From positions 62,001 to 126,000 of the forward strand of contig OZ251237.1 in the NCBI GenBank assembly GCA_965240325.2: 64,000 nt of DNA, written 5' to 3'. Below are positions 5,548-41,193 of this stretch, in pieces. The position numbers were made by a program, and so were the translations under genes. The notes below the pieces were generated by a model. That model was not told the DNA's origin and did not search any database. It was given only the letters and a program-made list of their open reading frames with translations. The DNA comes from Rebecca billardiae RCC1528. Lineage: Eukaryota; Protista; Haptophyta. How positions within the stretch are numbered: the stretch's first letter is position 1; each line of letters starts with the position of its first letter.

Positions 5548-5782
5548 CGTGCGTGCGATGCGAGTTTTGAAGGGCGGTCAAGGTCACCGCTACAGTCAAA
5601 GCACGCCGCACGCGCGGGACGGTTCTGTTGACCGTTTCGACCGCCTCACGGTAGGTATCCACTACGGATCCACTAGTTCTAGACTACGCGATCATCTACT
5701 CTACTTAATCGTTTAAAATACGAGTACGGAAGAGGTGTGCCCGGAATACGAAAATGCCCACAATTCGGAGTTTTCCCTATGA

Positions 5783-5900
5783 CAAACCACCGGTTCGGCT
5801 GTTTTTACTCGTCAAACCAACGGTTCGACGGGTTTTACTCCGAAACACCATCGGTTCGACGGGCTTTACTCGTCAAACCATCGGTTCGGCAATTTTTACC
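5783..5900. repeat. About 30-bp tandem repeat x4 (CAAACCATCGGTTCGACGGGTTTTACTCGT-like)
   Basis: Four degenerate, directly abutting copies. Confidence 0.8.
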
Positions 5901-6469
5901 CAAGGTGCTTGCGGTTGGGACAGTCCTCGCACGTATTGGTCTCGACAAACAAGAATCGGAGGACGCGTTTCGAGTGATGGCTTCGCGATGATTGTAACAT
6001 GTTTTTCACTCGAGTAGTTGATCGTTCGAGGGAAAAATCTTCTCGACGAAACATGGAGGGCCAATCAGGGTCCGTCGATCGATTACAAGCCGACGCGACT
6101 CAAGTTAATATAGGCGGCTCATTATTTGAACAGCACCGCGATGATACTCGCTCGTCAAGAGGGGCCCGCTCGGGCCAGGCTGACCGCCGTGACGGGAGGT
6201 CGAGATGCCACCGCGGGCGCCGCGGGGCTGCGACCGAGGGTGTGGACCGTCGGGGTGATGTGTGAGCAAGATGTTCACGCCCTGTCACCTGCAACTGTCG
6301 ACGGCCGTCCTCCACCTGCACCTCGCCTGCACCTCACGACCGGGTGCCCGGATGACCGATCTGTAACGCTCGACGAGTGATCCCGACGGCTCGACGAGTG
6401 ATCGAGTGATCCGCACGACGGGCGTCGCTTGCAACTGATCACGGCCGCTCTCCTGCCCGGCGCTCAGGA

Positions 6470-6942
6470 GGCGCACGCTTGATGCGTGTCCTGCGCGGTT
6501 GTCACCTAACGACCTGCCCCGGCGGTTGCAACTCTCTACATCTCTCGACGGAGTGGCGCGCCGCCGTCCGCGTTGCTCGACTGGATCTGCGCACCGGGCC
6601 TCGCCTGCAACTGTTTTGATGCGTGCCATGCCCTGCGCGGTTGGCACCTGGCTGCCTGCCCCTGCTGCTGCAACTCTCGACGGCGGCGCGCCGATCAGTG
6701 TTGCTCGACTGGATGTGCGCACCGGGCCTCGCCTGCAAGTGTTTACGGCCGTCCACCAGCCCTACGGTCCGAGGCTCAGTCGGCGCGCGCGCTTGATGCG
6801 TGCCGTGCCCTGCGCGGTTGGCACCTGGCTGCCTGGCCCTGCTGCTGCCGAACTCTCGACGGCGGTGCGCCGAATCAGTGTTGCTCGACTGGATTACTGC
6901 GCACCGGGCGTCGCCTGCAAGTGTTCAGTACGGCCGTCCACC
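6470..6942. repeat. Degenerate tandem repeat (about 140-200 bp units) interrupted by the PLV; continues at 20809-20885
   Basis: TTGATGCGTG..CCTGCGCGGTTG anchors at about 6479, 6616, 6793 and, after the virus, 20857. TTGCTCGACTGGAT..GCACCGGGC occurs in each left-hand unit. Confidence 0.85.
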
Positions 6943-7187
6943 GAGAGAGAAGGTATTACCTACTCACCAGGACAGTTTACCCCTGGCCGCCGCGCCGTCA
7001 CAAAATGGCCGGCACTCGCAGGTCATTTTCGCGCATCCGCGCACACCCTCCATCCCTCCCGCCCCTCCGAAATCACCGGTGTTTGCCACCCGAAACGAGA
7101 CTGGCAAATGCCGGTGATTTTCGCGCTGAAAACCATGCTTTCACAAGCGAAAATTTAGACGCCACTTCGACACACTGCGCGCTACGA
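6943..7187 (+). repeat. PLV left terminal inverted repeat
   Basis: Reverse complement of 20564-20808; two adjacent mismatches seen (CCCCTGG vs CCCCCAG). Confidence 0.95.
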
Positions 7188-7300
7188 TCCCGCCAAGACA
7201 AACCGAGGGCGGCCGCCGAAGCTCAGTTCCAAGGCCGAAGCTTGCGAGCCGGCCAAGAACTACCAGTGATCCAAGGCCGAAGCTTTCGGATCTCGCTTTT

Positions 7301-7610
7301 CACCAGGACAGACCAGCGCCCGCCAGTAAAAACTCGCGAGGCGACCATGATTTTACCGGTGAAGCTTTGGGTCTCACTTTTAGAGGCCACTTCGAGCACT
7401 CCGCCAGGCTATTTTCACCAGGACAGACCAGCGCCCCGCCAGTAAAAACTCGCGAGGCAGCCGTGATTTTACCGGTGAAGCTTCGGGTCTCAACTTTAGA
7501 GGCCACTTCGAGCACTCCGCCAGGCTCAGTCACCAGGACAGACCAGAGCCCCGCCAGTAAAAAAGGCGGCCATACCGGCGAAGCTTCGGGGTCTCAACTT
7601 TAGAGAGGCC
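7301..7610. repeat. 115-bp subterminal tandem repeat x about 2.7 inside the PLV
   Basis: Units start CACCAGGACAGACCAG at 7301, 7416 and 7531. Confidence 0.9.
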
Positions 7611-7810
7611 GACCATCCCCAAAACATATTTCGATCCGCCACTTAAGACTTGGGCCGAGCTCGCGCGACGATGTCGGCACCCCGGGCGGCCGCCACCGAC
7701 CCTCAGCCGCCGACCCGCCATCCACGGAAAAACTTAGGACTTGGGGGCCGAGCCAGCGGCGGACCAAAGTGCGTTAGTTTGCGACGAAAATTTTCTGCGC
7801 CAGAGTAAGA

Positions 7811-10800
7811 ATGGTCCTCCTCCTCGACCTTGACCGCCGCAACCAACTCGAGCAGGTACTCCTCGACCCCGAGCTGCCCATGAGGCGGCATGCTGCCGCG
7901 CGCCACGAGCTCGACCGAGACCGTCTCGAGAGGCTCTTTGCCGAGTTCAACCTGACGCCAAACGTCGATGGCAAGACCTTCGTGCTGCAGGGCAAGCGCA
8001 AGCGCATGCCCAGAACGCGCAAGAGCTGGGACCAGCTACGCCGCACGCTCGAGAGGCTTGAGAAGCACCAGCCTATGGAGACAGAGCTGAAGGCGATGGG
8101 CATCGACCTACAAGGCGGGCAGTTCACGCTCCAAGGGCGCAAGAGGCGCCTCCCTCGCACGTCCGAGGGCATGAGGAAGCTGCGCAAGCAGATCGGCTTC
8201 ACCGCCAAGATGCTGAATGATGGCATGACCAGGGTGGCTGTGCATGGGCCTGAGATCACCAAGGAGACGACCTTTACCATGCCAATCTCGATGCAGGTGG
8301 AGGCGACGGCGCCTCTGCTCATGCGAGAGCAAGCGCTCTACCAGATGCCGTCGCATCTGACAAGCGCAATCCACGACTTTGTCGCTGAGACGATCGAGAA
8401 GGAGCTGATGCGCGGAGCATCGAGTCGGCTCAAGGTGAGGGTCATCATCGAGACGCTGCATGTGAAGAGCACCAAGGGTGTCTTTGCGGTCGAGATGCCG
8501 AACCTGCCCGAGGACGCCTACCGCCGCATGATCGAACGAGGGCACCCAACCATATCAACATCTACTCGCTCCATCGCCGGCAAAGCAGTTTGGCAGCAGG
8601 AGCCGCAGCCGCTCATCGACCTCGTCAACGAGATGATCACCGATGCCTTCGAGCAGAGGCAGTCAATCTACGCAGACAAGCCAATCGCCATCAGCCGGAT
8701 GTGGATACACAGCGGCATGGTGACGCCTCGCGGAGCGACATCCGGGAGCAGCTACGTGAAGCTCGAAGGGCGGTGGGCCAACGCCAAGCTCGGCATCGTC
8801 AACCCCAAGAACCAAGACCTCAAGTGCTTCATGGCCGCGCTGCAGGCGGCAAAGGCTGTGGAGAGCGGCGTTGCCCACCCCGAGCGGCCGAGCGTCCACC
8901 GGAAGTTCCTCGTGACCGAGCCCGAGGGTGCTGTCTACCCTGTGGACATCGGCGAGATCCGCGCATGGGAGGTCGCCAACAACCTGGCCATCACAGCCTA
9001 TCGCCTCCCCGAGGACGGTGGGCAGGCGCAGGTGATGCGACTGCCGACGCCGCAGGATTTTCACAACCTGCCTCGGGTGGTCCTCGGGCTCTACAAGGAG
9101 CACTGGGTCTTCTGCCGCTCCGCCGATGCCATTTGCGCAAATACTACCTATATCTACTGCGAGCTGTGTCTCAAAAAGTTCCCCTTCAACGCTCGCGCTA
9201 AGCGAAATGAGCATCAGGAGGCATGCCATGACTCGTGGACGGTTAATTACGATGCTCAGACTGAGGAGCAAAAATTAGCCAGCTACATGACGCCTCGCGA
9301 GGCTGCGGCCGGCAAAGATTACCAGACCTCTATCGAGTACACGGGAGGCATCGAGCAGATCGTCAAGCCGCTGGTGATCCACGCCGATTTCGAGACCGTG
9401 ACCATCGATGGTGAGATGAGGCCATATGCCGTCGGCCTCATTGAGACCTGGAGCGACGGAGCCATCAAGTACGTGACCTTCACCGGGCCTGAGTGCCATA
9501 TCAATCTGGTGGTCTACCTGCTGGAGACATACCAGAGCTACCTGGATACTGCAGGCAGGCACTCTGCGCTCAAGAAGCGCTCCTTCACACGCGAGACCCA
9601 GCAGGCTTTCGATAGTGCCACCTGCTGCTACCTCTGCGGCGGCGAATTCGGCGAGACCAAAAATTTCGACCATGACCACTACACTGGCGCATATCGCGGC
9701 GCCGCTTGCACAAAGTGCAACCTGCATGCATCCACAACGAATCTCATGGCGAGCGTACCAGTGTTTTTTTCACAACCTCACCGGCTTTGACGCCAATTTC
9801 CTGATCCAGGCCCTCGGCTCCGAGCGGGTGCAAGGGCTGATGAACGAGATGGCCAGGATAAAGCAGAACCGCAAAACGGAGATCCTCAAGAAGAGGATCG
9901 AGGCGCAGGAGGCGCTTCTCGTCTCGTGCGCAATAAGAGGAGACAACTATGACACTGCGCAAATCACCAGCCTCGAGCGCGAGCTCGCGAGCACGCGCCT
10001 GACCAAAGCGCTCAAAACCGACATCATCCTGCAGAACACGCAGCGGCTCAAGCAGCTGACGATCGGCGGCTTTGTTTTCAAGGACACGATGGCTTTCATG
10101 AAGGAGTCGCTAGAGACCCTCCTCAACAACCTGGACCCCGCGGACATGCGGAACTTGCGCTCGTTTGCCAGCGATTGGGCGCGGGCCCGAGGACTCGACC
10201 CAGAAATCGTATTCGAGGCCGCGCGCCGCAAGGGCATTTTCCCCTACGAGATTCCGTGGCACCTCGAGTTGGATACGCCCATTGACACGCTCATCGAGAA
10301 ATACCCCGACCTCTTCCTGTCCAAGCTAAAATCGAGCTTCGGTATCGCAGGCCAGGACCAACACTTTGAGGCGGGCGAGGATGAGGCGATCGGCAAGCTA
10401 GTGCAACTCAAGTCGGCGGTCGGGCTGGAGACCATGAGAGACCTCCTCGACTGGTACCTCGCTATCGACGTTCACGGGCAGGCAGACGTCTTCACCAACT
10501 TCCAGCACCTCTTTCACACCAACTTTGGCCTGGACCCGAGCTGGTTTCTCTCGGCGCCGCAGTCCTTCTTCAAGACGATGCTCAAGACCACGGGGCAAAA
10601 GATCGAACTCTGGCAAGACTCGAGAGACGTAGACTTTGCTTCCAAGTGCATTCGAGGCGGCTACACAGATGTGCGCCACAAGCTGCAGACGGCAGGAGGA
10701 GGCGTGCACATCGGCTACTTTGACGCGAACAACTTGTACGGCTGGGCGATGAAGCTCAAGCTGCCAGTAGGCGCGCCCTGGGATGTTGAGCCCGAGGACT

Positions 10801-12089
10801 TTGACCTGCACGACCCCCGGTATGGGCGGCTACCGAGTGGCCCCGGCGACCTCGATTTCCAAGGAGACATCGGAGCGTATGTGGAGATCGATGGCTACTA
10901 TCCGGAGCACACGCACCAGCGCCTCAACGATTTTGTCCCGCTGCCCGAACACAGGGATGGCAAGCTCATCGCGCACCTCGACCCACGCGTCAACTATGTG
11001 TGCAGTGTGCTGAATCTGCAGAAAGCAGTCGAGCTCGGCTTTGTCGTGACAAAGGTCCATCGCGTGCTAGAGATGCATCTAGCACCGTGGATGCGCGGCT
11101 ATGTCGACCAGATGGCTGCGCTGCGCGCCCAGGCGAGAAACGACTTTGAGAAGAATTTCTTCAAGCTAGGCTCGAACTCCTGCTTCGGAAAAACCATGGA
11201 ACGCACACTGCACCACCAGGATGCCGGCATCGTCTCTGGGAGTGTGATGGAGAAGCGCTTCCTCGACCCGCGCAGCCGGTACTCGAGGCATATCGGTGGC
11301 TCGCTCTTCCTCGTCTCTGGCGACAAGAAGCGATACCTCAAGACTACGCCTGTCCAATTGGGCGCGCTCATCCTCGAGAGCTCGAAGCTGCTCATGCAAA
11401 CATTTTGGCACGATGGCCTCAAGCCGGCGTTCCCAAACATCCAGCTATGCATGACCGATACCGATTCCTTCATCTTCTCGGTGAACGACAAGAATTACAA
11501 GCACAAGATGAAAGAGCTCGCGCCTCGCTGGCTCGATTTGCACGAGTACCACACTCGAAACCCGCTGCACGATGCCTCGAACCAGAAAGTGGTAGGATAC
11601 TTCAAAGACGAGTTTGCCAACGCGCGTATTTGCGAGGTGGTGTGCAACGCGCCGAAATGTTACTCGGTCAGATCGACAAAGAAACAGCTGCGCAAGAACA
11701 AAGGCGTGCCATACAAAGTGGTGACGAAGGCACTGCAACATGGTCACTATCGCGATATCGTCCTCCGCGAGAAGGAGACACACGTGGAATACTACCAGAT
11801 TGCTGCGCGCTCGAATGTGGTGAGGATGGAACGCCGTGAGAAGGTGGCCCTCCGAAACTCGTACAACAAGGGTGTCGTGGCTGCGAACGGGCTGGAGATC
11901 CTATCGCTGGGCCACTACAAGCTCGATCCAAGGAGGCACTTTGAGCGAATTATTCGGACGCATGATTGGGAGACGCTCACAGCAAGGAAGGCAGCGCAAA
12001 TCATGGTCGACGAGTCTGGCTACGACGTGAGCCTCAAGTGGGCCAACCGAATAATGAACGAGTTCGTCACAGCTTGCTTGATGGGCTGA
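7811..12089 (+). CDS. Protein-primed family B DNA polymerase (Polinton type), split by one extra T at 9764-9770
   Basis: ExoI IHADFET, ExoII FHNLTGFD, RKGIFPYE, motif A YFDANNLYGWAM, motif B KLGSNSCFGK, motif C MTDTDS, plus APKCY and KNKGV. N-terminal part in ORF 7811-9790, C-terminal part in ORF 9615-12089. Confidence 0.95.
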
Positions 12090-12984
12090 GCGATGACGAC
12101 GGCGACGAGAACCGAGGTGTGGGATCGTACGGGATGACCTTGAGGAATGCCTTCGCCGCGTTTTCAGATACATTAAAATCTCTGGCCAGCATCTTGCTCA
12201 GAGCTGTGCGGGATTCTTTCGGGTTGGCCTGCATCATGAGTATGATGGCATCGATGTTGTCGTCAAGGTGGTCTCTGGCTTCATTTCCAAAGAGCGGTTT
12301 TGAGGCCTGGGTGCCAGCCGTCTGCTGGGATGGCTGCTCCTGTGTGCCCATGGAACGCCTCTTTGGGCCGCCAGCCTGCGTGCCAATCGCCGGGCGCTCT
12401 GGCACCCCCTGAGTACCAGTTGACCTTCTCTTTGGACCGCCAGCCTGCGTGCCAATCGCCGGGCGTTCAGGCGGCATCTCCTGAGTAGCAATCGACCGTC
12501 TCTTTGGACCGGCTGCCTGCATGCCTGTAGAGTGCTGCTCTGGGCGCATGCTCCGAACGACTCTGTCCGTCTCAACACCAATCGATCGCCGCTCTGGCAC
12601 GGCGCTTGTGGAGACAGGCAGAGGCTGCTTGTTGACTATCAGCCTGCTCATGGCTTGGCCAGACGCATCGCGTGTAGGCAGGCGAATCTGCCGAGCACGG
12701 AACTCGTTGACACCATCGCTAAAGGGGAGCAAGGCATCGATGGAAGGCACTCGTCTGCCCACTGCAGCAGTCTGGTTGGTGGGCGGCGGTCTCGTTGGCT
12801 TGATCAGTGGCTTCATCACAATCGGCTCGGCCGAATACGTCAGTCGTCTCGAAGACCGCGTAGGCACGGCTCCGCTCCAGTATTCTTTTCCGCGGCTGTG
12901 AAAGGAGCCGCCGTAGGGTTTGCCCTCGAGCCGAAAATGCGTGGTCTTGGTCGGCAGGAATCGCCCGCGATGTATGGCTTGCAT
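12067..12984 (-). CDS. PLV hypothetical protein with repeated (S/A)x(G/A)TQ motifs
   Basis: 305-aa ORF with AT-rich leader and a 60-bp internal tandem repeat (PERPAIGTQAGGPKRRS). Confidence 0.75.
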   Translation of the reverse strand: MQAIHRGRFLPTKTTHFRLEGKPYGGSFHSRGKEYWSGAVPTRSSRRLTYSAEPIVMKPLIKPTRPPPTNQTAAVGRRVPSIDALLPFSDGVNEFRARQIRLPTRDASGQAMSRLIVNKQPLPVSTSAVPERRSIGVETDRVVRSMRPEQHSTGMQAAGPKRRSIATQEMPPERPAIGTQAGGPKRRSTGTQGVPERPAIGTQAGGPKRRSMGTQEQPSQQTAGTQASKPLFGNEARDHLDDNIDAIILMMQANPKESRTALSKMLARDFNVSENAAKAFLKVIPYDPTPRFSSPSSSLSPSSKL

Positions 12985-12990
12985 CTGTAA

Positions 12991-13680
12991 TCATAGTAAT
13001 AATTTATTCCACTCTCTGTGGAGCGCACCATGGTCTGCATTAAGAAATAAAAAAGTGTGCGGATCGCCATCGCCAAATATGTACTGATACACTGTAGCAA
13101 AGTCTGAGCGAGGCATCATGATCAGTTCAGAGCGCAGAGCCTCTAGCTCCTTGGTATTGTTGGGTTTGAACACGGTTACATGAGAGAATAATTTTCGTAT
13201 AGTCAGTGGCACCGATATGTAACCCTGTGATATAACAATAATGCTGAGTTTATAGTGCCGCCTGTTCTGAACGATACGCGAATACAGGCGCTGCAAATTT
13301 GGGTCTTTTAGTGACGCAGCAAAATCATCTATAATAAGGAGCGTCGGCAAAGGCATGTTCGACTCGGCAATGCTGAGCACATTCTGAAGTGTCTCTGCCG
13401 TTAGCTCGTGGTATACATATTGGAGCGTGGCTAGCGGGGAATTTTGGAAGCTGTCCACCGAGGTGCGCGGAGCCACGAATATAACGTTGGCAAAGACTCG
13501 TTTATAGGGGCCAGTGATCAGGCCGACCACCTGGCTGGATTTGCCGCTGCGGGGTGGGCCAAAGATGCCCCAATGAAAACTCGTGTTAGGGAGTGGTTCT
13601 GGCAGGCCTGGCTTCAGAGGCTTGTCCGCACTGATTCTAGGCAGCGGGAGCTCTATGTGGTGCGCGATCTCGTTGATCAT
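12991..13680 (-). CDS. A32-like (FtsK-HerA) genome-packaging ATPase
   Basis: Walker A GPPRSGKS, Walker B LLIIDD, NRRH arginine motif, ISQ sensor. Confidence 0.93.
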   Translation of the reverse strand: MINEIAHHIELPLPRISADKPLKPGLPEPLPNTSFHWGIFGPPRSGKSSQVVGLITGPYKRVFANVIFVAPRTSVDSFQNSPLATLQYVYHELTAETLQNVLSIAESNMPLPTLLIIDDFAASLKDPNLQRLYSRIVQNRRHYKLSIIVISQGYISVPLTIRKLFSHVTVFKPNNTKELEALRSELIMMPRSDFATVYQYIFGDGDPHTFLFLNADHGALHREWNKLLL

Positions 13681-14006
13681 ATAAAGCGCATGATTCTTTT
13701 TTGGGATGGCTTGACCGGGGTCAGCGCCTCCGGGGTCACCGCCTCCGGGGTCGCCTCTTCCTCGCCAGCCAGCTCGATCGATTCAGTCTGCCTGACAATG
13801 CTAGGCGGCGTCTTGCTTGGCGGGCGCCTGGGTGTGGGTGCCTTTGGCCCGACCTCGCCGCCGATTTCTTCGAGCTTGGCTTTCGCATCCTCTGCCAGCT
13901 TGGTGTATGTGGCCGCATGTGTCTCATATGTCACTACCTGGCGTTTCAGGCGCATGCGCTCCGTCGCCAGCTGCTGCGCCTCGCTGCGTGTCTTTTTATT
14001 CTCCAT
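13677..14006 (-). CDS. PLV hypothetical coiled-coil/low-complexity protein
   Basis: 109-aa ORF preceded by the shared upstream motif; its stop overlaps the ATPase start (ATGA). Confidence 0.65.
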   Translation of the reverse strand: MENKKTRSEAQQLATERMRLKRQVVTYETHAATYTKLAEDAKAKLEEIGGEVGPKAPTPRRPPSKTPPSIVRQTESIELAGEEEATPEAVTPEALTPVKPSQKRIMRFI

Positions 14007-14119
14007 CTTCTATATGCAAGCAGAGAATATTTTGGATTTCAGCCGAGAGGATGCATTGGCATGGTACATCTCCAAGAAGCTCGGCACGAGCGATGATGAA
14101 ATAATATCGGCACTAATTC

Positions 14120-14854
14120 ATGCTGCACCTGCACACAAGTCAGGGCGATGTGTTTCCACTGGGCCGAGCCAAGACGAGCTGCGTGAATTTCACACTGAGC
14201 CACCCAATCATGGCGGCAAGCGATGAGGTCATATTTGTATCTGTCGATAGCCTGTGTGTGCCTAATACGCGCTATGCAGTAGACAGCTCGAATAATAGCG
14301 TGGGTGCCGCCTCCGACTGGGGCGATACGACGCTTACGCTCACCCCGAAGAATTATACAGCCAGCACGCTTGTCACAGAGATCAACTCGGCATTGTCTAG
14401 CATCAACGTGACTGCTGCTTTCGACTCGGCCACTGGCAAGCTCACATTCTCGACGACACATGGTTTCGACACCACCATCAAAGGCACGAGCAGCGCTTCG
14501 CGCGTGCTCGGCCTCTGTCGCACAGACTTGGTAATACCTGCTGGCGGCAGTATAGAGGCACCCGGCGTGGTGGACCTGCTCAGCCGAGGCTTTGCACTCA
14601 CCTGCGAAGGGTTGGATGTCAAGAGCAGAGACTCGTCCAACTCGGGCTCATCAAGCAATATTTTGTGCGTGGTGCACATTGACAAGCCTTTCGGCCAGAC
14701 TGTACTGTACACTGATGCGAACAATGATATCTTGCAGTGCAACCGCCGGAGTATACAAAATATCGAGCTCCAGCTGATCGATCTCGAGACCATGCAGCCG
14801 GTGGAGCTGAATGGAGCCGAGTGGTCTGTCAACCTGAAATTCCAAATTTCTTAA
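14120..14854 (+). CDS. Minor capsid protein (penton, single jelly-roll)
   Basis: PLV mCP-like pattern: VSVDSLCVPNTRYAV..NN, KNYTASTLV, TGKLTF, RVLG, SNILCVV, IELQLID..VELNGAEWSVNLKF. Lies directly upstream of MCP. Confidence 0.85.
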   Translation: MLHLHTSQGDVFPLGRAKTSCVNFTLSHPIMAASDEVIFVSVDSLCVPNTRYAVDSSNNSVGAASDWGDTTLTLTPKNYTASTLVTEINSALSSINVTAAFDSATGKLTFSTTHGFDTTIKGTSSASRVLGLCRTDLVIPAGGSIEAPGVVDLLSRGFALTCEGLDVKSRDSSNSGSSSNILCVVHIDKPFGQTVLYTDANNDILQCNRRSIQNIELQLIDLETMQPVELNGAEWSVNLKFQIS

Positions 14855-14879
14855 GAAATATTTCCTGGCCATAGTACTT

Positions 14880-16193
14880 ATGGCTTACGCCGGCAAGCGT
14901 GTGATGAACGATATTCGCGGTGATGACGCGATGGTGCTCGAGCAGGAGGAGACGGCTCCAAGCTACTATGACTTTTCAAACCCCAAGCCCGTCGCCGTTG
15001 GCGCTGCCTACAAGAGGCCGACGATATATGCAGGCCCGTCGTCTAGCTTCACAAGTGGCCAGGTGATGCAATTCGATATCCCGACGGGCACGCCCGGCGC
15101 GATGATGGACCCGTCTCAGACGGTCCTGCAGTTTACCATTCACAACACCTCTGGCCAGCCTCTCACGCTCTCAAGGTCTGCATACTCGTGCATCGAGCGC
15201 ATTGACGCCTACCACGGCAGCCAGATGATCGCAAGCACTGGCAAGGCAGGCCTGCTGCACAATGTCTTGCTCGACTTCCAGTCGGGCGCATCTTCGGGCT
15301 TCTCCACCGGCAGCATGCTGGGCTGTGCCGACTACGAGATGCCTGCTGCATATGCAGCAGCCGATGTTGAGAGCGCTCTGTACCCGACAACCGGTGAGAC
15401 CATTGCCAACAATGCCCGGAAGACGGTGACCCTCCCACTCGCGTACGTGTTTGGCGCTCTGTGTGGTAAGGCGGTGCCGCTCTCCGAGCTGCACCAAGGC
15501 CTTCGTGTTGACATCCATGTGGCAAACATGCTCGACTTTGGCGTGTATGATGCCGACCCAGGCACTACCTCCCCCACGCTTGAGACGGTCAAGATGCAGC
15601 TCGGCATGGTCATGCTGAGTGATAGTGCCTACACCAAGATGGTTCGCTCGCTCGATCGGATCTACATCCCATCGATGTCCTACCTCCATGCCTCCCACTC
15701 GGTGGCTGCAAACACGTCGACGGCCTGGCAGTTGCCATTCCGCCTGGCGTCGGTCAACATGATCATCCTGGCTGCGGTGCCGAATACCAGTGAGAACGCC
15801 TTTGGTGGCGACATCACGACTCGCACGCGCGCGGCGCTCACCAAGTGGCAGTTGCGCATCGGCTCTACCCTCGTGCCGGATCAGCCAGTCTCTGCCACCC
15901 ACGGCGGCGCAGAGACGCGCGCTGAGCTCGTTCGCGCCTTCAACGCGCTCGGCATTGCCGATTATGCCTCTCGCGTGAGCGGTACGGCCTTTGACGATGC
16001 GGCTTTCTGCATCGCCTTCAACACGAGCGCCTTCTCGCAGTCCGACATCCTCTTCGACGGCCGCCGTCTCGATACCGAGTACGCCATCTTTGAGGCCGAC
16101 ACGAACAGCGGAGCATCTTTCAAGTGGCATGCCTGGGCGCTCCATGACGTGATGATGGAGGTTTCCCAGAACCAGCTCAATTTCGCCATTTAA
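14880..16193 (+). CDS. Major capsid protein (double jelly-roll, PLV type)
   Basis: 437 aa, beta-rich, with MQFDIP..MMDPSQTVLQF..SAYSCIERI, KAVPL and WQLRIG..VP. Size and position fit a PLV MCP. Confidence 0.85.
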   Translation: MAYAGKRVMNDIRGDDAMVLEQEETAPSYYDFSNPKPVAVGAAYKRPTIYAGPSSSFTSGQVMQFDIPTGTPGAMMDPSQTVLQFTIHNTSGQPLTLSRSAYSCIERIDAYHGSQMIASTGKAGLLHNVLLDFQSGASSGFSTGSMLGCADYEMPAAYAAADVESALYPTTGETIANNARKTVTLPLAYVFGALCGKAVPLSELHQGLRVDIHVANMLDFGVYDADPGTTSPTLETVKMQLGMVMLSDSAYTKMVRSLDRIYIPSMSYLHASHSVAANTSTAWQLPFRLASVNMIILAAVPNTSENAFGGDITTRTRAALTKWQLRIGSTLVPDQPVSATHGGAETRAELVRAFNALGIADYASRVSGTAFDDAAFCIAFNTSAFSQSDILFDGRRLDTEYAIFEADTNSGASFKWHAWALHDVMMEVSQNQLNFAI

Positions 16194-16210
16194 TTTCGCT
16201 CTATATATAC

Positions 16211-16504
16211 ATGAATTTTCTAGGTAGACTCGTTAGAGATGCGCGCGGAAAGATCGGCGGGCTGGCTAACACCGCCCGAAGGCTCGGCAGACCCATCAGC
16301 TCTGCAATCCACCACCTAAAGCCCTGCGTAGACAAGGTGGGTGGGGACGTCACCCAATTCTTGAACGAAGTTGATCGCACCGAAGGACTCGGCGATATCG
16401 CCTCACCTTATACGGCCGCTGGAAGGCGGGCCATACAGCGTGGGCGTCAGATCTCCAACCGTCTGGACCAGGGGGCTCGCAGAGCCGACCGGTTTCTACG
16501 CTAG
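16211..16504 (+). CDS. Small basic protein with amphipathic N-terminus (candidate virion core or membrane-active protein)
   Basis: 97 aa, Arg/Gly-rich, immediately after MCP, with an AT-rich leader. Confidence 0.65.
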   Translation: MNFLGRLVRDARGKIGGLANTARRLGRPISSAIHHLKPCVDKVGGDVTQFLNEVDRTEGLGDIASPYTAAGRRAIQRGRQISNRLDQGARRADRFLR

Positions 16505-17114
16505 GCGGTGCTGCTCTCGTAAAAAGCGGATTGGGCGCGTGAACGCGTCTGCGCTGATGCGCCCGACCGTCTTCCGACTGCCCCCTCGCTTGAGTGAGCG
16601 AGAGCGCCGACACGATATCGCCTGGAGAGCGGACGTCGAATTGTGTCTTGGGTAAGACCTTTCCGATATCCTTCAATCCAGCACCTTTTTGGGATGTATG
16701 CACCTGAGCTGCGCCAGAGTTTTCGGCCAGGTGCCCGCCCAAGCTGTGGCCCATGGCTGACGTCACGCCATATTTTCGTCGCACAATCTCGACCAGCTTG
16801 CGGGCTCGCTGGTGGCGCGGATCATATACAGAGAAGCCGAGCGCGAGTAGCACATCGGACACTGCCCAGTCGGCAAAGCTGACGCTGCCTCGAAATAGGA
16901 CTAGCGGCCGGCCTGGTGCTATATGCACCAATACCTTGTCTTCGTCAGACGAGAGTCTGACGTCGAGCCGATACCGCGGCTTCACATGCTCGCGAGCCTG
17001 CTCGAGCGTCATGTATGATGCTTCTAGCAACATGCGCCTGTCTTTTTGGAGGGTCGTCCCCGAATCGAATAGCAGGCGCTCTCCTTCCTGGGTGGAGATG
17101 GTGGGGATATTCAT
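16350..17114 (-). CDS. Alpha/beta-hydrolase (class 3 lipase-like)
   Basis: LFRGS oxyanion motif, DW..D, nucleophile elbow GHSLGG, DIVS. The true 3' end may be 16496 (see findings). Confidence 0.85.
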   Translation of the reverse strand: MNIPTISTQEGERLLFDSGTTLQKDRRMLLEASYMTLEQAREHVKPRYRLDVRLSSDEDKVLVHIAPGRPLVLFRGSVSFADWAVSDVLLALGFSVYDPRHQRARKLVEIVRRKYGVTSAMGHSLGGHLAENSGAAQVHTSQKGAGLKDIGKVLPKTQFDVRSPGDIVSALSLTQARGQSEDGRAHQRRRVHAPNPLFTRAAPPSVETGRLCEPPGPDGWRSDAHAVWPAFQRPYKVRRYRRVLRCDQLRSRIG

Positions 17115-17128
17115 ATTACTGCGCAGTT

Positions 17129-17761
17129 TTATTTGCGAGGCCTGAGCATCCTGAAGCCGTGGGCCGAGCGGACTGGGTGCCCGCTCGTGGCGTCTACAAT
17201 GTTTGTGACCTGCGCTCGCCTGTCTCTCTGGCTACGCGTGCGGCGGATGGCTCCAGTAGGGATGACCGAGGTTTGCTCCACAGCCGGCTGGCTGCCACCT
17301 CTGTGAGTGATCGAGCCCTTGTCATTAAAAACATACCAGTTCCCCTCTGTTTGCCTCCGCACCACCGCCATGAGCAGAGCCAGGAGCGGGCGAATCTCAG
17401 GCCATGGTGCCCCGCTTTGTCGCCATTCTTTATCCCGGAGAGGCTTGACAAAACTGTAACCTGGATTCGTGCGAGCGAGAAGCCGATCCTCCACATCTTT
17501 GGCCAGGTTGGGGCTCGTCACAAGGAATGCCATCAGCTTGAAGCTGCCTGCAGCATAGGGCATGCTATGCCTGTACCCAGCGAAGAGCCTACTCCGAATA
17601 TTTTTGGTCATTCCCATTTTAAACAGGGGTCTCTTGCCAGCCCATGTTGGGTGGATAACATACACGCCGGCAATCTTTTTGTCCTTGTCAGCGAAGCCCG
17701 CATTTTGCAGCGCAGCCTTAAACTGCGTATACTCCTTCTTTAGCGGGTCAGTGATACGCAT
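17129..17761 (-). CDS. GIY-YIG superfamily nuclease-like protein (T5orf172/MUG113-like)
   Basis: GVYVI..FKMGMTKNIRSRL..VEDRL..KEW. ATG 17761 chosen because it leaves an AT-rich divergent spacer to 17784. Confidence 0.7.
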   Translation of the reverse strand: MRITDPLKKEYTQFKAALQNAGFADKDKKIAGVYVIHPTWAGKRPLFKMGMTKNIRSRLFAGYRHSMPYAAGSFKLMAFLVTSPNLAKDVEDRLLARTNPGYSFVKPLRDKEWRQSGAPWPEIRPLLALLMAVVRRQTEGNWYVFNDKGSITHRGGSQPAVEQTSVIPTGAIRRTRSQRDRRAQVTNIVDATSGHPVRSAHGFRMLRPRK

Positions 17762-17783
17762 ATTATTATATGGCTTATAATAT

Positions 17784-19877
17784 ATGGCGAGCATCTTCGG
17801 CCTAGTTTCATCATCAATCAGCTGGAGTGGCGAGGTGCTCACGTATCCAGCAAGCTCGTCTATAACTATCAATTTCGTTCCGCCGCTGCCCGACGAGGAC
17901 CTGAAAATACGGGTTTCCCATCCCAGGCATATATTCACTGTGACGAGCGCGAGCATAACTCCATCGAGCGCCACTGTAGTCTGGGCAGCGGACAATTATG
18001 AGAAGGTAGTGAATCGCCAATATGATCACGAGTATAAGCCTTACTTCAGCGTATATTCTGGTGATACTCTGCTGACCAGCTTTGATCACACGGGTACGCT
18101 ATATCATGGATCGATCGAGTCTGGCAATCTGATCACCCAGTCCATGCTCACTGGCCCCACAGTGGCTCATTTCCCGCTGACCGCAGACCTGGTCGATACC
18201 ACTCCCCGCGCTCAGAGCCTCGTGCCGGCTGGCACGTTTGCCTTTGCTGAAGACTCCGCGCGCTCAACGGCCAATGCAAGCACGCTCACGCTCCAGACAC
18301 CTGGGCACGACTGGCGGGATTTTAGTGCGGCTTTCTACCTGAAGGGCTGCCCAGGCCTAAGTAAACTCTCACTCGGCGGTGGGCTCTCGTACGCGAGCGC
18401 TGAGCTGGATTCAAACATAATTGCTAGCAGCAGTGTCGGCTTTGTAGACAACGTGAGCCAGATGGTCCCAAGCGGTGTCTGGACACACTTTGTCATCTCG
18501 CAGGAAACCACGTCTTTTGAGGCGAATATCGAGATCTATGCGGACCAAATGCTCCTCCACTCTCGCACCATTGGTCAGCAAACAGACCCGGATTTCAAGC
18601 GGATTTCGCTCTACTACCCACTCGTCGCCACGCTTGACGACCAGGCTGCGCTCGCGCACCTGAGCATATATCCATACGCTCTCGATGCGGCCGGCCGCCT
18701 GGCGCACGCGCAGTCGTGGCCTGGGTATGTCCCGCCTGCAGCGCTTGTGCTGCACCTGCCTCTGAGCGCCGACTATATCGCGCTTGTGGGCACGACTCCA
18801 GCCGGGGTGCCGCCCGCATCCGGATCTTTTGCAAGCGGATACCTGAACATGGATACCGCTTATTCGTTTGAGACATCGTCCGACACCTTTGCCGCTACGA
18901 ACGGTTTCACTATGTGTGCTTGGATGCGCTCTGCGGTAGGCTGGCAGCCGGGCGATTATATCAACATTCGTGTTTTTGAGGGCAATTTCACAAGCAACTC
19001 AAAGGCAGAGCTGTACCTCGAATCAGATCATGTGTGGGGGCGTCATGAGCAAGTCACCGGGCTCTCCGCAGGCCAATGGTACCACTTGGCGTGGCGCTGG
19101 CGCCCGAGCGATAATCTGCAAGAGCTGCTCGTGGACGGCGTTGTCTCTGCCAGCAGCATACAGCCCGGCCAAATCACGACGTATCAATCATGGCGCGTCC
19201 AGAACAATGCGGTCGGCGCTGCAATCATGCACCTGCAAGTGTGGGACGGCTATGTCGACGACATTGCGCAACTGATGCTCGATTATCCGCTGCCCGAGAT
19301 AGGTATGCACTGGCCATTGACGAGTGACCTGTCCGAAGCCAACGGTGGTATCGAAAACCTCGCGGTCGAGTCGGGCACAACGTCGTACGCTGACGGTGGT
19401 CTCTACATCGACACCACATCCAAGATCGGTGTGAACCTAGCCAGCACAATTTCTACCGACTTCACGATCATGTTTGTTGGGAAGGGCCCAGGCGTGGGCT
19501 CGATCCGGATCAAACTGAATGACGTCGATGCGGCCACAGAGAGCCTTCTTTTCACGCAGGAACTTGCTGGTAATCGCTTAACGACGCATTTTTTCAATCC
19601 GGGGCAAATCTGGTTCGATCACAAAAATACCACGCTCACCGATACAGTGTGGGAGCACTGCGCATGGGTATTTAACAACACAGCGAGCACCGTCCGAACG
19701 TTCCTCAACGGCGTGTTTTTGGGCGAGTATGCCCTGCCATCGCAAACATCGGTCGACTTCATCCAGCGCATCGAGTTTGACGTCATATCAGCCGGCTCCT
19801 ACATCAAGAACGTTCGATATTTGCCGAGTATCGCGCCCGATGGCGACGTGGCTGCGTATGCCGCGTCTGACACGTAA
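17784..19877 (+). CDS. Protein with three LamG/concanavalin-A-like domains (candidate fibre or receptor-binding protein)
   Basis: Three modules opening AHFPL/LHLPL/MHWPL, with FTMCAW, WTHFV/WYHLA/WEHCA and IYAD/LVDG/FLNG strands. Confidence 0.75.
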   Translation: MASIFGLVSSSISWSGEVLTYPASSSITINFVPPLPDEDLKIRVSHPRHIFTVTSASITPSSATVVWAADNYEKVVNRQYDHEYKPYFSVYSGDTLLTSFDHTGTLYHGSIESGNLITQSMLTGPTVAHFPLTADLVDTTPRAQSLVPAGTFAFAEDSARSTANASTLTLQTPGHDWRDFSAAFYLKGCPGLSKLSLGGGLSYASAELDSNIIASSSVGFVDNVSQMVPSGVWTHFVISQETTSFEANIEIYADQMLLHSRTIGQQTDPDFKRISLYYPLVATLDDQAALAHLSIYPYALDAAGRLAHAQSWPGYVPPAALVLHLPLSADYIALVGTTPAGVPPASGSFASGYLNMDTAYSFETSSDTFAATNGFTMCAWMRSAVGWQPGDYINIRVFEGNFTSNSKAELYLESDHVWGRHEQVTGLSAGQWYHLAWRWRPSDNLQELLVDGVVSASSIQPGQITTYQSWRVQNNAVGAAIMHLQVWDGYVDDIAQLMLDYPLPEIGMHWPLTSDLSEANGGIENLAVESGTTSYADGGLYIDTTSKIGVNLASTISTDFTIMFVGKGPGVGSIRIKLNDVDAATESLLFTQELAGNRLTTHFFNPGQIWFDHKNTTLTDTVWEHCAWVFNNTASTVRTFLNGVFLGEYALPSQTSVDFIQRIEFDVISAGSYIKNVRYLPSIAPDGDVAAYAASDT

Positions 19878-19907
19878 AATTACGTGTAATTTTTCAGGGG
19901 TACTGAT

Positions 19908-20186
19908 ATGTTAGCTGCGATAGTATCAGCCGACGAAAGGTTAATAAAAGCTTCGACCCGCAAGGGTAAGCGATACGAGTACAAGGGTGTGCATTTTGGT
20001 GCCAAAGGCGGCAAGACGTATATAGACCATGGCAATGATGCCATCAAAAAGGCCTGGATCGCAAGGCATCGCGTGAATAAAAACTGGAACAACCCCAAAT
20101 CTGGGATTTACTACAGCCGCCATTTGCTGTGGGGCCCGACACCGAGCCTGCAGAAAAACCTGGAGATACTACTACATGGACGATAG
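19908..20186 (+). CDS. Tlr6F-like protein (conserved in PLVs, virophages and NCLDVs)
   Basis: STRKGKRY..VHFGAKG..YIDH..WIARH..YYSRHLLW signature. Confidence 0.85.
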   Translation: MLAAIVSADERLIKASTRKGKRYEYKGVHFGAKGGKTYIDHGNDAIKKAWIARHRVNKNWNNPKSGIYYSRHLLWGPTPSLQKNLEILLHGR

Positions 20187-20489
20187 GCCGCCTCCATCGG
20201 CCGTCTTTAGCGCCGAGTGCATGCTCAGCTGCATATCGGAATTGCTATCCTCCTTGTTTTGCCGAGGATGACGCTCGCGCCAGAGTGCCTGACGTTTCTT
20301 GAGCAGCTCCCGGTTGCATGCGATGCAGATCTTGGCCCGGTAAACACGCTTGTTCTTGCGACGATAGTTCATCTCGAGTGCGGGCACGTATTTCTCACAT
20401 GCTTTACAGTGGGCGTACAGGCCCTTGAGCTCGGCTGGATTCTCCGGCCCCATGCGACCATCCTCGACGGTCGTGAAGGTGGTCTTCAT
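20172..20489 (-). CDS. Small zinc-ribbon protein (CKAC..CIAC) with basic helix
   Basis: Two CxxC pairs followed by a basic helix; the shared upstream motif precedes ATG 20489. Confidence 0.65.
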   Translation of the reverse strand: MKTTFTTVEDGRMGPENPAELKGLYAHCKACEKYVPALEMNYRRKNKRVYRAKICIACNRELLKKRQALWRERHPRQNKEDSNSDMQLSMHSALKTADGGGLSSM

Positions 20490-20563
20490 ACTTAACACAC
20501 CGCAGAAATTATTTAGCCACCGACCACCCGCTCGCCACTATGGCGGTTGGGTGGTGGCTGGCC

Positions 20564-20808
20564 TCGTAGCGCGCAGTGTGTCGAAGTGGCGTCTAAATTT
20601 TCGCTTGTGAAAGCATGGTTTTCAGCGCGAAAATCACCGGCATTTGCCAGTCTCGTTTCGGGTGGCAAACACCGGTGATTTCGGAGGGGCGGGAGGGATG
20701 GAGGGTGTGCGCGGATGCGCGAAAATGACCTGCGAGTGCCGGCCATTTTGTGACGGCGCGGCGGCTGGGGGTAAACTGTCCTGGTGAGTAGGTAATACCT
20801 TCTCTCTC
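20564..20808 (-). repeat. PLV right terminal inverted repeat
   Basis: Reverse complement of 6943-7187. Confidence 0.95.
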
Positions 20809-21236
20809 AGCCCTACATACACGGTGCGAGGCTCAGTAGACAGTAGGGGCGCGCGCTTGATGCGTGCCCTGCGCAGTTGTCAACGCAGGCTGCACCCGCC
20901 ACCCGCCCCAGCGTCCGCAGCACTCGGGACCGTGGCGGCAGCAGCTCACCTTGACGATGTGATACTTGACCGTTGACGACCGTCAGCTGTCTTAAGTATG
21001 ACGCTGCGGCTGCCAGCTAACCATCAATCTGAGCAGTTCATTTTTAAAGACGAAGTCCTCAGGGCTGGCACGTGCGCACGGCGGCGTCGTCTGCATATCA
21101 GCGAGTGCCGAGTCTGCAGCGCGCTGTCTGCACCCGGCTCAGATCAACGTCTGAAGGTGGTCGTGATTCGTGAAGCTGCCGCCGGCGTGCAGCGGCGGCT
21201 GCAACTCACTCTCTAGTATTATTGAATATGGTAGGA

Positions 21237-22217
21237 CTACACGACAGCGTCAGCGGGCGCAGCTGCGACAGAGGCTTCCCCTGCTGCCTGTGCCGCGCAC
21301 CACGCGTTGCAGTGGGGCTTGTGCACCTTCCACGAGCTGCGCAGGTGCTCACGCGAGCAGAAGACCGCCACGTGGCACCGCTCGCACTTCTTCAGACCGC
21401 GGCCTGTCCGTCCGCAGGCGATGCAGCACTGGGAGACCACCTCACGCTCTCCAGCTGCATTGGCCAGTGCAGTGCACGCTGCATCACTGAGGTTGGGATC
21501 GAGCTCTTGGCCACGGCGCAGCAGCTGCGCGCCCTCCTCCACGTCACGCTCCACTCCATCACCGTGCAGCAAAAACTGTCCCAGCGAGATGTGTGCACCT
21601 GCGCACCCACCATCAGGCCCATTAGCAGCCAGGCGGAACCAGCGCACCGCCTCGCCCGAGTCCTGCTGCACACCCTCGCCTTGCGCGTAGCACAGGCCCA
21701 GATGGGACTGCGCTTGAGTAACGCCCTGCTCGGCGGCCAGCCGCAACCAGCGCGCCGCCTCGGCCATATCCTGCTGCACGCCCTCGCCACGCGCGTAGCA
21801 CAGGCCCAGATTGTACTGCGCCTCAGTATAGCCCTGCTCGGCCGCCCGCCGGTACCAGCGCACTGCCTCGCCCCAGTCCTGCTGCACACCCTCGCCTTGC
21901 GCGTAGCACAGGCCCAGATTACCCTGCGCGTGAGCATAACCCTGCTCGGCCCCCAGCCGGTACCAGCGCGCGGCTGCCTCGAGGTCCACGGACTGACCAA
22001 GCTTGCCTTCCGTGCAGATGTTGCCCATGTGTACCTGCGCCTTGGCGAAGCCGCGCTCGGCGGCGAGGGTGTACAGGCGAAAGGCTTCGCGCGCGTCCTG
22101 CGCGATACCGTCACCAACCTCTACCCGCTGCGCCAGAAGGAATGTCGCTCGCGCGTCGCCGCGCCCCGACTTGCGCCAGAGGAGACCGACCGCCGCCGCG
22201 GAAGCGTCCGCCGCCAT
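21237..22217 (-). CDS. Sel1-repeat protein with C-terminal MYND zinc finger (intronless)
   Basis: Repeated AQxNLGxCYxxGEGVQQDxxEAVRWYRxAAEQG; MYND CIAC..CERC..FCSREH..W..HKPHC. Confidence 0.9.
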   Translation of the reverse strand: MAADASAAAVGLLWRKSGRGDARATFLLAQRVEVGDGIAQDAREAFRLYTLAAERGFAKAQVHMGNICTEGKLGQSVDLEAAARWYRLGAEQGYAHAQGNLGLCYAQGEGVQQDWGEAVRWYRRAAEQGYTEAQYNLGLCYARGEGVQQDMAEAARWLRLAAEQGVTQAQSHLGLCYAQGEGVQQDSGEAVRWFRLAANGPDGGCAGAHISLGQFLLHGDGVERDVEEGAQLLRRGQELDPNLSDAACTALANAAGEREVVSQCCIACGRTGRGLKKCERCHVAVFCSREHLRSSWKVHKPHCNAWCAAQAAGEASVAAAPADAVV

Positions 22218-35796: not shown

Positions 35797-36481
35797 CTGC
35801 CCAGATTTAACTGCGCTGCAGCAACGCCCTGCTCGGCGGCCAGCCGGGACCAGCGCACCGCCTCTGCGATGTCCTGCGCCACGCCATCGCCTCGTTGGTA
35901 GCACGATGCCAGGCAGCTCTGCGCATCTGCATTGCCCTGCTCGGCCGCCCGCCGGTACCAGCGCGCTGCCTCTGCGATGTCCTGCGCCACGCCATCGCCT
36001 CGTCGGTAGCACGATCCCAGGCAGCCCTGCGCATCTGCATCGCCCTGCTCGGCCGCCAGCCGGTACCAGCGCACCGCCTCTGCGATGTCCTGCGCCACGC
36101 CATCGCCTCGTTGGTAGCACGATGCCAGGCAGCTCTGCGCATCTGCATTGCCCTGCTCGGCCGCCCGCCGGTACCAGCGCGCTGCCTCTGCGATGTCCTG
36201 CGCCACGCCATCGCCTCGTCGGTAGCACGATCCCAGGCAGCCCTGCGCATCTGCATCGCCCTGCTCGGCCGCCAGCCGGTACCAGCGCACCGCCTCGGCC
36301 CAGTCCTGTGGCACTCCCTTGCCTTGTTCGTAGCAGTTGCCCAGGTTGGTCTGCGCACCTGCGTCGCCCTGCTCGGCCGCCAGCCGGAACCAGCGCACAG
36401 CCTCGCCCCAGTCCTGCGGCACGCCCTCGCCTTCTGCGTACCGCACGCCCAGCTCGCATTGCGCAGCTGCATCGCCCAGCT
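35793..36481 (-). pseudogene. Truncated Sel1-repeat gene fragment with a 216-bp internal duplication
   Basis: About 6 Sel1 repeats, cut at AGCT 36478-36481 and ending mid-repeat at the C2-gene stop. 35851-36066 is duplicated at 36067-36282. Confidence 0.75.
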
Positions 36482-36550
36482 CCGCCGGCCCAGTCCTGCG
36501 GCTGCGGTATGACCTCGCCTCGTCCAAGGGAGGTCCGGGCCGGGCGGGGG
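36482..36550. mobile_element. Degenerate mini-foldback element C', flanked by AGCT
   Basis: AGCT|CCGCCGGCCC..AGGGAGGTCCGGGCCGGGCGGGGG|AGCT; its right arm is related to element C at 41152. Confidence 0.5.
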
Positions 36551-36554
36551 AGCT

Positions 36555-40078: not shown

Positions 40079-40084
40079 AGAGCT

Positions 40085-41147: not shown

Positions 41148-41151
41148 AGCT

Positions 41152-41193
41152 CCCGGCCCGGACCTCCCTTGGGACTAGGGAGGTCTGGACCGG
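41152..41193. mobile_element. Mini hairpin element C
   Basis: AGCT|CCCGGCCCGGACCTCCCT-tgggact-AGGGAGGTCTGGACCGG|AGCA. Confidence 0.55.

What the first reader, a model, noticed from the sequence alone, without database searches (positions are those of the whole stretch)
6931..20830. Blunt insertion with zero target-site duplication into one unit of a host tandem repeat
Seen: the intact neighbouring unit reads CGGCCGTCCACC-AGCCCTAC (about 6746-6765). The occupied unit reads CGGCCGTCCACC|GAGAGAGA...TCTCTCTC|AGCCCTAC, after which the repeat resumes (GAGGCTCAGT..GCGCGCGCTTGATGCGTG). Removing the virus restores the site with no base gained or lost and both termini intact. Known: rve-type Polintons leave 5-6 bp TSDs. 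Inference: capture of a linear genome at a clean blunt break, perhaps cut by a virus-encoded nuclease, with this repeat as a possible preferred target. Caveat: the empty site used is a paralogous unit, not the true allele.
Basis: partly seen in the sequence, partly recalled or inferred. Interest (0 to 1): 0.88.

Follow-up and report, generated by a model that had tools for sequence, protein, structure and literature searches.

The report
Integrase-less virus inserted without target duplication
A 13.9-kb Polinton-like DNA virus with no detectable integrase sits in a host repeat with no base gained or lost compared with the neighbouring repeat copy; it was likely pasted in by the host's own DNA-break repair, and this single copy gives no evidence of a targeting enzyme or a preferred site.

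Summary
The element is 6943-20808 (13,866 bp) with 245-bp terminal inverted repeats (243/245 complementary). Its flanks match the neighbouring repeat unit exactly for 14 + 8 bases, and no target-site duplication fits symmetric ends. A 1-bp ambiguity remains.

It is a Polinton-like virus: double-jelly-roll capsid, packaging ATPase, protein-primed polymerase. No rve or tyrosine-recombinase gene was found, even with profiles built from related viruses, while 17 of 25 viral loci with the same polymerase type carry rve.

The nuclease idea is weak. The endonuclease VII motif is a clade-wide part of this polymerase, present in 12 of 15 rve-bearing relatives. The GIY-YIG/T5orf172-like gene is a common accessory. 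A target preference cannot be shown from one copy; no genome, reads or sister copies were available.

Best reading: host end-joining captured an intact linear genome at an incidental break (0.5). Rivals: a tyrosine recombinase in trans (0.2), a virus-made cut (0.17). TSD-less and integrase-less integrated PLVs are already in print. I found no base-exact junction reported for an integrase-less pPolB-type one.

The parts
6943..20808 (.). Endogenous Polinton-like virus, 13,866 bp, GC 0.57
   Evidence: TIRs, length and GC, gene content
6943..7187 (+). Left terminal inverted repeat, begins with (GA)4
20564..20808 (-). Right terminal inverted repeat (243/245 complementary to the left)
7297..7563 (+). 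Subterminal 116-bp tandem repeat, 2.3 copies, left end only
7811..9790 (+). pPolB N-terminal part: likely terminal-protein and vOTU domains, start of the exonuclease with an inserted endonuclease VII (His-Me finger) module; the frame breaks at a run of 7 T at 9764
   Evidence: Pfam PF02945 E 9e-6; C339, H431, C606/C609/C636/N637 invariant in 39 aligned sequences; weak fold hits to OTU proteases and Y-family polymerases, none at E <= 0.001; only homopolymer of 7 or more in the element
9672..12089 (+). pPolB C-terminal part (exonuclease II motif and polymerase motifs present)
   Evidence: Pfam PF03175 E 1e-14; motifs; 49 longer homologues of 1411-2162 aa; both parts align to the same homologues
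12067..12984 (-). 305-aa low-complexity ORF with 72-bp repeats; it lies directly downstream of pPolB, where many relatives carry rve, but shows no integrase similarity
12991..13680 (-). A32-like packaging ATPase
   Evidence: Pfam PF04665 E 1e-4; 16 homologues at 28-41% identity, all PF04665
13677..14006 (-). 109-aa ORF, unassigned
14120..14854 (+). Putative minor capsid (penton) protein, assigned by position and weak similarity
   Evidence: PF19254 DUF5901 E 1.5e-6; weak tblastn hits in ATPase-bearing PLV contigs
14880..16193 (+). [quoted passage not shown]
   Evidence: AlphaFold pLDDT 81.9; Foldseek PBCV-1 capsid E 3e-17
16211..16504 (+). 97-aa basic ORF, unassigned
16350..17114 (-). Putative lipase / alpha-beta hydrolase (GHSLGG motif; label recalled)
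   Evidence: sequence; weak tblastn hits in PLV contigs; no Pfam hit
17129..17956 (-). T5orf172/GIY-YIG-like nuclease; the true start is probably near 17761
   Evidence: ESM Atlas feature hits 0.89-0.91 to T5orf172/GIY-YIG clusters; no Pfam, PHROG, PDB-sequence or phage hit
17784..19877 (+). 697-aa putative fibre/attachment protein (label inferred from size and composition)
   Evidence: no significant family hit
19908..20186 (+). DUF5754 (Tlr6F) protein, a common PLV gene
   Evidence: PF19058 E 1e-8; DUF5754 = Tlr6F in PMC12220804 Table S6
20172..20489 (-). 105-aa Cys-rich ORF, weak hits to the Zn-binding parts of phage endonucleases
   Evidence: PHROG E 8e-4 to 0.045
6296..6942 (+). Host degenerate repeat array (units about 137-198 bp); left part, ending in the interrupted unit
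   Evidence: (D13, D19, D20)
6746..6765 (+). Intact paralogous copy of the insertion site
20809..20882 (+). Remainder of the interrupted repeat unit; similarity to the array ends at 20882

Best explanation
This is a Polinton-like virus with a protein-primed polymerase, intact-looking inverted-repeat ends and no detectable integrase, whose free linear genome was likely ligated by host end-joining repair into an incidental double-strand break in a small host repeat, leaving no duplication. Shown: boundaries, TIRs, gene content, absence of rve/YR similarity, and the exact match of the flanks to a paralogous unit. Inferred: (1) the genome is linear, flush-ended and capped by a terminal protein, from the pPolB architecture; (2) the cap was removed, or never present on this molecule, without trimming; (3) both host ends were joined with zero net change, or with one shared C; (4) the site was not specifically chosen. 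The lineage probably lost the rve gene that most relatives carry beside this polymerase.
For: No TSD for symmetric ends; 14 + 8 exact flank match. None of 110 six-frame ORFs of 60 aa or more hits an integrase family in Pfam. Profiles built from 14 rve ORFs and 19 YR-like ORFs of related viruses give best E 8.8-9.1 on 266 six-frame stretches of the element and nothing in 964 stretches of the window. The same rve profile finds rve in 17 of 25 viral loci with this polymerase type (14 of them are its own training sequences; Pfam found those 14 independently). Inside the TIR and subterminal regions no gap between called ORFs exceeds 113 nt, so there is little room for a hidden gene. Precedents: integrase-less terminal-protein plasmids (pAL2-1) integrated complete and without target homology in half the cases, proposed as repair by-products (PMC1864894, passages); Ca_PLV1 is integrated with no detectable integrase (PMC11296320, passages).
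Against: End-joining usually leaves small losses or additions (established knowledge; PMC1864894 notes them for hepadnavirus junctions), whereas here both ends and the target look untouched, which is what an enzyme-directed event would give. A covalent terminal protein should block ligation unless removed. Pfam missed 3 of 3 PLV YR-like proteins tested, so a very divergent recombinase could escape. There is only one insertion and no true empty allele.
Confidence: 0.5

Rival explanations
1. A tyrosine recombinase supplied in trans by another PLV in the same cell recombined a circularised copy (TIR joined to TIR) into the site. This leaves no TSD.
For: YR-type PLVs typically lack TSDs: 10 of 232 had putative ones in cryptophyte cluster C1 (PMC12220804, passages). 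Trans supply was proposed for Ca_PLV1 (PMC11296320). It explains two exact junctions. YR-like genes occur in 19 of the 58 ATPase-related viral loci.
Against: The joined ends and the target share only one base at the crossover. pPolB is reported to pair with DDE integrases, and YR with PolA/AEP replicases (10.64898/2026.10.13.758929, passages). No YR gene lies in the window. A helper's recombinase would need to recognise these TIRs, which is untested.
Confidence: 0.2
2. A nuclease of the virus (T5orf172/GIY-YIG-like protein, or the endonuclease VII module of pPolB) cut the host at or near this motif, and host repair ligated the genome in. The repeat would be a preferred target.
For: Both candidate nucleases are present. 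The endonuclease VII module keeps DHDH and CxxCN, and the GIY-YIG-like ORF is open. The junction is clean.
Against: The endonuclease VII motif is in 31 of 49 polymerase homologues and 12 of 15 rve-bearing relatives, so it is no substitute for an integrase. GIY-YIG/T5orf172 genes are widespread in PLVs. Characterised GIY-YIG enzymes mostly leave 1-2-nt 3' overhangs rather than blunt ends (recalled, no call). The site is not palindromic, and the identical neighbouring site is uncut and unoccupied. n = 1.
Confidence: 0.17
3. An unrecognised integrase, or a host transposase of the Spy kind (DDE, TIRs, no TSD), inserted the element by a blunt strand-transfer reaction.
For: Spy transposons insert precisely without TSD (PMC4122938, abstract). 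Four ORFs are unassigned. One weak fold hit of the pPolB N-part was to IstA transposase (E 0.06).
Against: Spy targets AAA^TTT, unlike this site. The unassigned ORFs are 97-109 aa or low-complexity. The IstA hit is better explained by the RNase-H-like exonuclease fold (inference; the aligned range could not be obtained).
Confidence: 0.07
4. The zero is only apparent. The true allele differed from the neighbour at this point, or there is a 1-bp duplication with a 1-nt end loss, or the junction is an assembly error.
For: The units differ by 7 indels in about 180 nt, all extra bases in the occupied unit. The 1-bp reading is sequence-equivalent. No reads were available.
Against: A hidden deletion would have to remove exactly the bases by which this unit differed from its neighbour. 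A misassembly is unlikely to restore a collinear repeat to the base.
Confidence: 0.06

Closest known systems
Polintons/Mavericks and Polinton-configured PLVs (pPolB + rve)
   Same: TIR-bounded, about 14 kb; pPolB with likely terminal-protein and vOTU domains and an inserted homing-type nuclease module; DJR MCP, putative penton, A32 ATPase; dinucleotide-repeat termini.
   Different: No rve, no 5-6-bp TSD, no maturation protease detected; termini begin GA rather than AG (the AG rule is recalled); MCP at most 37% identical to anything found.
Tyrosine-recombinase PLVs (cryptophyte cluster C1, PMC12220804; Gezel-14T/PgVV group)
   Same: Integrated, TIR-bounded, no TSD; Tlr6F, lipase-like and GIY-YIG accessory genes.
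   Different: No YR detected here; replicates with pPolB rather than a primase-helicase or TVpol.
Ca_PLV1 / AHEV_PLV1 (PMC11296320) and integrase-less MELD viruses (PMC8502044)
   Same: PLV-like genomes with no detectable integration gene; Ca_PLV1 is integrated.
   Different: Animal hosts; no junction analysis in the passages I saw.
Linear invertron plasmids pAL2-1 and kalilo (PMC1864894)
   Same: Terminal-protein-primed linear DNA with TIRs and no integrase; it integrates, sometimes complete and without target homology.
   Different: Mitochondrial, no capsid; insertions are flanked by long inverted duplications of host DNA, which are absent here.
Spy DNA transposons (PMC4122938)
   Same: TIR element inserted precisely with no TSD.
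   Different: Spy encodes a DDE transposase and targets AAA^TTT; neither is seen here.

Membership tests
Polinton-like virus (broad sense) | [quoted passage not shown] | tested here: met
Polinton-like virus (broad sense) | A32-like packaging ATPase | tested here: met
Polinton-like virus (broad sense) | Minor capsid (penton) protein | tested here: inconclusive
   position, DUF5901 and weak hits only; not folded
Polinton-like virus (broad sense) | About 14-40 kb genome with TIRs | tested here: met
   13.9 kb, 245-bp TIRs
Polinton/Maverick (strict) | Protein-primed PolB | tested here: met
   gene is frameshifted at 9764 in this sequence
Polinton/Maverick (strict) | rve integrase | tested here: not met
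   positive control
Polinton/Maverick (strict) | 5-6-bp target-site duplication | tested here: not met
Polinton/Maverick (strict) | Capsid maturation cysteine protease | tested here: not met
   no Pfam hit in 110 frames; a divergent one could be missed
Tyrosine-recombinase PLV | YR gene | tested here: not met
   custom profile from 19 YR-like ORFs; Pfam alone is insensitive; the YR label of those ORFs rests on recalled motifs
Tyrosine-recombinase PLV | No TSD | tested here: met
Site-specific (nuclease-targeted) integrating element | Recurrent target among independent insertions | not testable with these tools
   no genome, no runs listed, TIR start not found as a true match in three collections
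Spy-type TSD-less DDE transposon | DDE transposase and AAA^TTT target | tested here: not met
Named PLV group (PgVV, TSV, Trimcap, Gossevirus, NDDV) | MCP clade membership | not tested
   no labelled reference MCPs were available; relatives found were unnamed or at 20-25% identity

The most novel reading that the evidence does not exclude
A lineage of pPolB viruses has dropped rve and integrates by a third route: its own nuclease makes a blunt cut at a preferred host motif and the intact, flush genome ends are ligated in. That would be a seamless, duplication-free insertion of 14 kb without any integrase.
Probability: 0.12. Interest if true: 0.8.

Novelty: new variant of a known kind. Interest (0 to 1): 0.35.

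Why it matters
pPolB-type elements normally travel with rve and leave 5-6-bp duplications; how integrase-less PLVs get into genomes is open (PMC11296320 offers cryptic or trans functions). This locus gives a base-level junction with an internal near-empty-site control, and it excludes a standard rve reaction, in cis or in trans. If sister copies were equally exact and shared a target, it would define a new integration route and a possible scarless large-insert tool. If they are ragged, it shows that host repair alone endogenises such viruses. As a single copy it cannot decide this, hence the moderate score.

Tried and rejected
Resources that gave nothing:
- No whole genome is held for this window.
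- No sequencing run was listed; this is no evidence of absence.
- The TIR-start pattern gave 0 matches in viral contigs and 0 in metagenomes. One match in a bacterial MAG had no further similarity and was dropped as chance.
- Close relatives of MCP, ATPase, pPolB and the GIY-YIG ORF were not found in viral contigs, nor of MCP in metagenomes, nor of MCP or the GIY-YIG ORF in GenBank phages.
- The 16-sequence MCP alignment was too diverse to search with.
- The only database copy of this MCP is the protein itself, on a 2,956-bp contig.
- The 58 ATPase-related viral loci are distant and AT-rich, with no pPolB hit and no host junctions.
- The domain-level structural alignment of the pPolB N-part never ran.
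- The ESM Atlas gave no usable hit for the 305-aa ORF.
- Earlier scan findings offered nothing on this genome or sequence; eight off-topic ones were not used.

Readings rejected:
- rve in trans, because it would leave a 5-6-bp TSD.
- Endonuclease VII as a dedicated targeting enzyme, because it is clade-wide.
- Nesting within a larger TIR transposon spanning the lower-GC flanks: no shared terminal repeat longer than 14 nt exact.
- Homologous recombination: no host-element homology at the junctions.

Of the 25 pPolB-related loci, 8 showed no rve. Five of these are partial views of longer contigs, two are short contigs, and one (L081, 16.7 kb) is a whole contig without TIRs, so I do not count them as integrase-less relatives.

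Literature searches for a matching report listed none with a base-exact, TSD-less junction for an integrase-less pPolB PLV. bioRxiv supplements were closed, and I did not read Table S4 of PMC12220804; either may hold such cases.

Full report
1. The observation. The window holds a 13,866-bp block at 6943-20808 with GC 0.57, in eukaryotic host DNA that runs at GC 0.65-0.89 over much of the window and includes rDNA at 59775-64000. The host looks like a GC-rich microalga, perhaps a haptophyte; that is recall, not tested. The block is bounded by 245-bp inverted repeats with two mismatches, and complementarity stops at the terminal G/C. The left flank ends CGGCCGTCCACC, the right flank begins AGCCCTAC, and the neighbouring unit at 6746-6765 reads these contiguously. 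The exact match is 14 nt left and 8 nt right; 0 of 200,000 random joins reproduced such a match. No duplication of 1-10 nt fits the symmetric ends. A 1-bp C duplication with loss of the last right-hand base gives the same letters, so the result is 0 or 1 bp, and certainly not 5-6.

2. How good is the empty-site proxy? The flank is a short degenerate array, not a homogeneous satellite. Neighbour and occupied unit align with 170 identities, 7 mismatches and 7 indels of 1-6 nt, all extra bases in the occupied unit. Two other units carry diverged versions of the site and one lacks it. To hide a deletion, the lost bases would have to be exactly those by which this unit differed from its neighbour, so zero net change is well supported, though not proven. 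The 20-nt site occurs once intact in the window, and that copy is unoccupied.

3. What the element is. [quoted passage not shown] The polymerase is split into two ORFs at the element's only homopolymer of seven or more bases (9764). Both parts align to the same full-length homologues, so this is one gene with a frameshift, real or a sequencing error. Its N-part keeps an invariant Cys and His in the position of a vOTU dyad and gives weak fold hits (E 0.03-0.1) to OTU proteases and Y-family polymerases. That fits the terminal-protein + vOTU layout described in 10.1101/2024.03.18.585575 (passages). A linear, protein-capped genome is therefore inferred, not shown.

4. No integrase. None of 110 six-frame ORFs hit an integrase in Pfam. 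Pfam is a fair test for rve: it found rve in 14 of 48 selected ORFs from related viral loci. It is a poor test for PLV tyrosine recombinases: 0 of 3. I therefore built profiles from 14 rve and 19 YR-like ORFs of related viruses. Their best scores on the element were E 9.1 and 8.8 over 266 stretches, with no hit among 964 stretches of the whole window and no tblastn remnant below E 0.19. By contrast, 17 of 25 viral loci carrying this polymerase type have rve, often right behind the polymerase. In this element that slot holds a low-complexity 305-aa ORF. The element thus looks like a Polinton-configured virus that lacks its integrase.

5. The nuclease idea. The endonuclease VII module keeps its catalytic-looking residues, but the motif is present in 31 of 49 homologous polymerases and in 12 of 15 rve-bearing relatives with a full-length polymerase. 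It is a family trait; homing-nuclease insertions in polinton polymerases are noted. GIY-YIG and T5orf172 genes are common in PLVs (PMC12220804 Table S6, part read) and lie near replication and integration modules in mavirus and Gezel-14T (PMC11296320, passages). Nothing ties either nuclease to this site. A target preference cannot be inferred from one insertion, and all attempts to find sister copies failed.

6. Mechanism. Best: host end-joining ligated a free linear genome into an incidental break (0.5). In favour: no integrase, no TSD, no homology, and the precedent of integrase-less terminal-protein plasmids integrating complete without homology (PMC1864894, passages). Against: two perfectly clean junctions are tidier than end-joining usually is, and the terminal protein must be removed. 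Rivals: a tyrosine recombinase in trans (0.2), a virus-made cut (0.17), a cryptic or Spy-like blunt transposase (0.07), and an apparent zero (0.06). rve in trans is excluded by the missing 5-6-bp duplication.

7. What is known. In cryptophyte cluster C1, 232 of 298 PLVs encode YR, 2 encode rve, and only 10 of the 232 have putative TSDs (PMC12220804, passages). By my subtraction at least 64 of 298 have neither gene detected. Ca_PLV1 is integrated without a detectable integrase. Two MELD viruses lack integrase (PMC8502044, passages). Spy transposons insert without TSD (PMC4122938, abstract). pPolB correlates with DDE integrases (10.64898/2026.10.13.758929, passages), which makes this combination atypical. 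Also consulted as passages: PMC10120064, 10.64898/2026.06.19.733378, PMC12721341, 10.1101/2022.07.28.501842, 10.64898/2026.07.28.741278, PMC7805220. Five searches listed no base-level TSD-less junction for an integrase-less pPolB PLV; closed or unread supplements may hold such cases.

8. Verdict. The feature is real. It is a PLV in the broad sense, and fails the strict Polinton and the YR-PLV membership tests. The zero-TSD junction is an expected consequence of having no rve, rather than evidence of a targeting nuclease. It is a new variant of a known kind, with interest 0.35. The bold case, a nuclease-guided scarless integration route, stays open at about 0.12 and is directly testable with the host genome and reads.

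Noticed in passing
window 12067-12984 (-): The 305-aa ORF carries six spaced TQ motifs of the form (S/A/T)xxTQ at residues 167-225. They resemble dynein light chain LC8-binding sites (recalled motif), so this could be a multivalent dynein hook on a virion protein.
   Followed up: partly
window 9764-9770: A run of 7 T splits the polymerase gene; it is the only homopolymer of 7 or more in the element, so a long-read error is plausible.
   Followed up: partly
window 36548-41152: Nested near-perfect inverted repeats: 736 bp (36548-37281 vs 39352-40087, 99.5%) and 377 bp (40080-40456 vs 40776-41152, 99.5%), next to a Sel1-repeat array; possibly adjacent fold-back elements or a local rearrangement.
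   Followed up: no
window 21237-22217 (-) and 35811-36490: An intronless Sel1-repeat + MYND-finger gene right of the virus, and a second Sel1 array about 75% identical to it 14 kb away.
   Followed up: no
window 5600-6250: A low-GC stretch (about 0.5) with a 30-bp tandem repeat at 5764-5896 just left of the target array; origin unknown.
   Followed up: partly
window 6880-6942 and 20809-20856: All seven indels between the occupied unit and its neighbour are extra bases in the occupied unit, and five lie within about 60 nt of the junction; some look like local slippage duplications.
   Followed up: partly
window 59775-64000 (-): Eukaryotic rDNA unit (LSU, 5.8S, 3' end of SSU), usable to identify the host species.
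   Followed up: no
L081:1-16695: A whole 16.7-kb viral contig with an 1842-aa pPolB bearing the endonuclease VII motif and no rve or YR-like hit; a possible free integrase-less relative, completeness unknown.
   Followed up: partly
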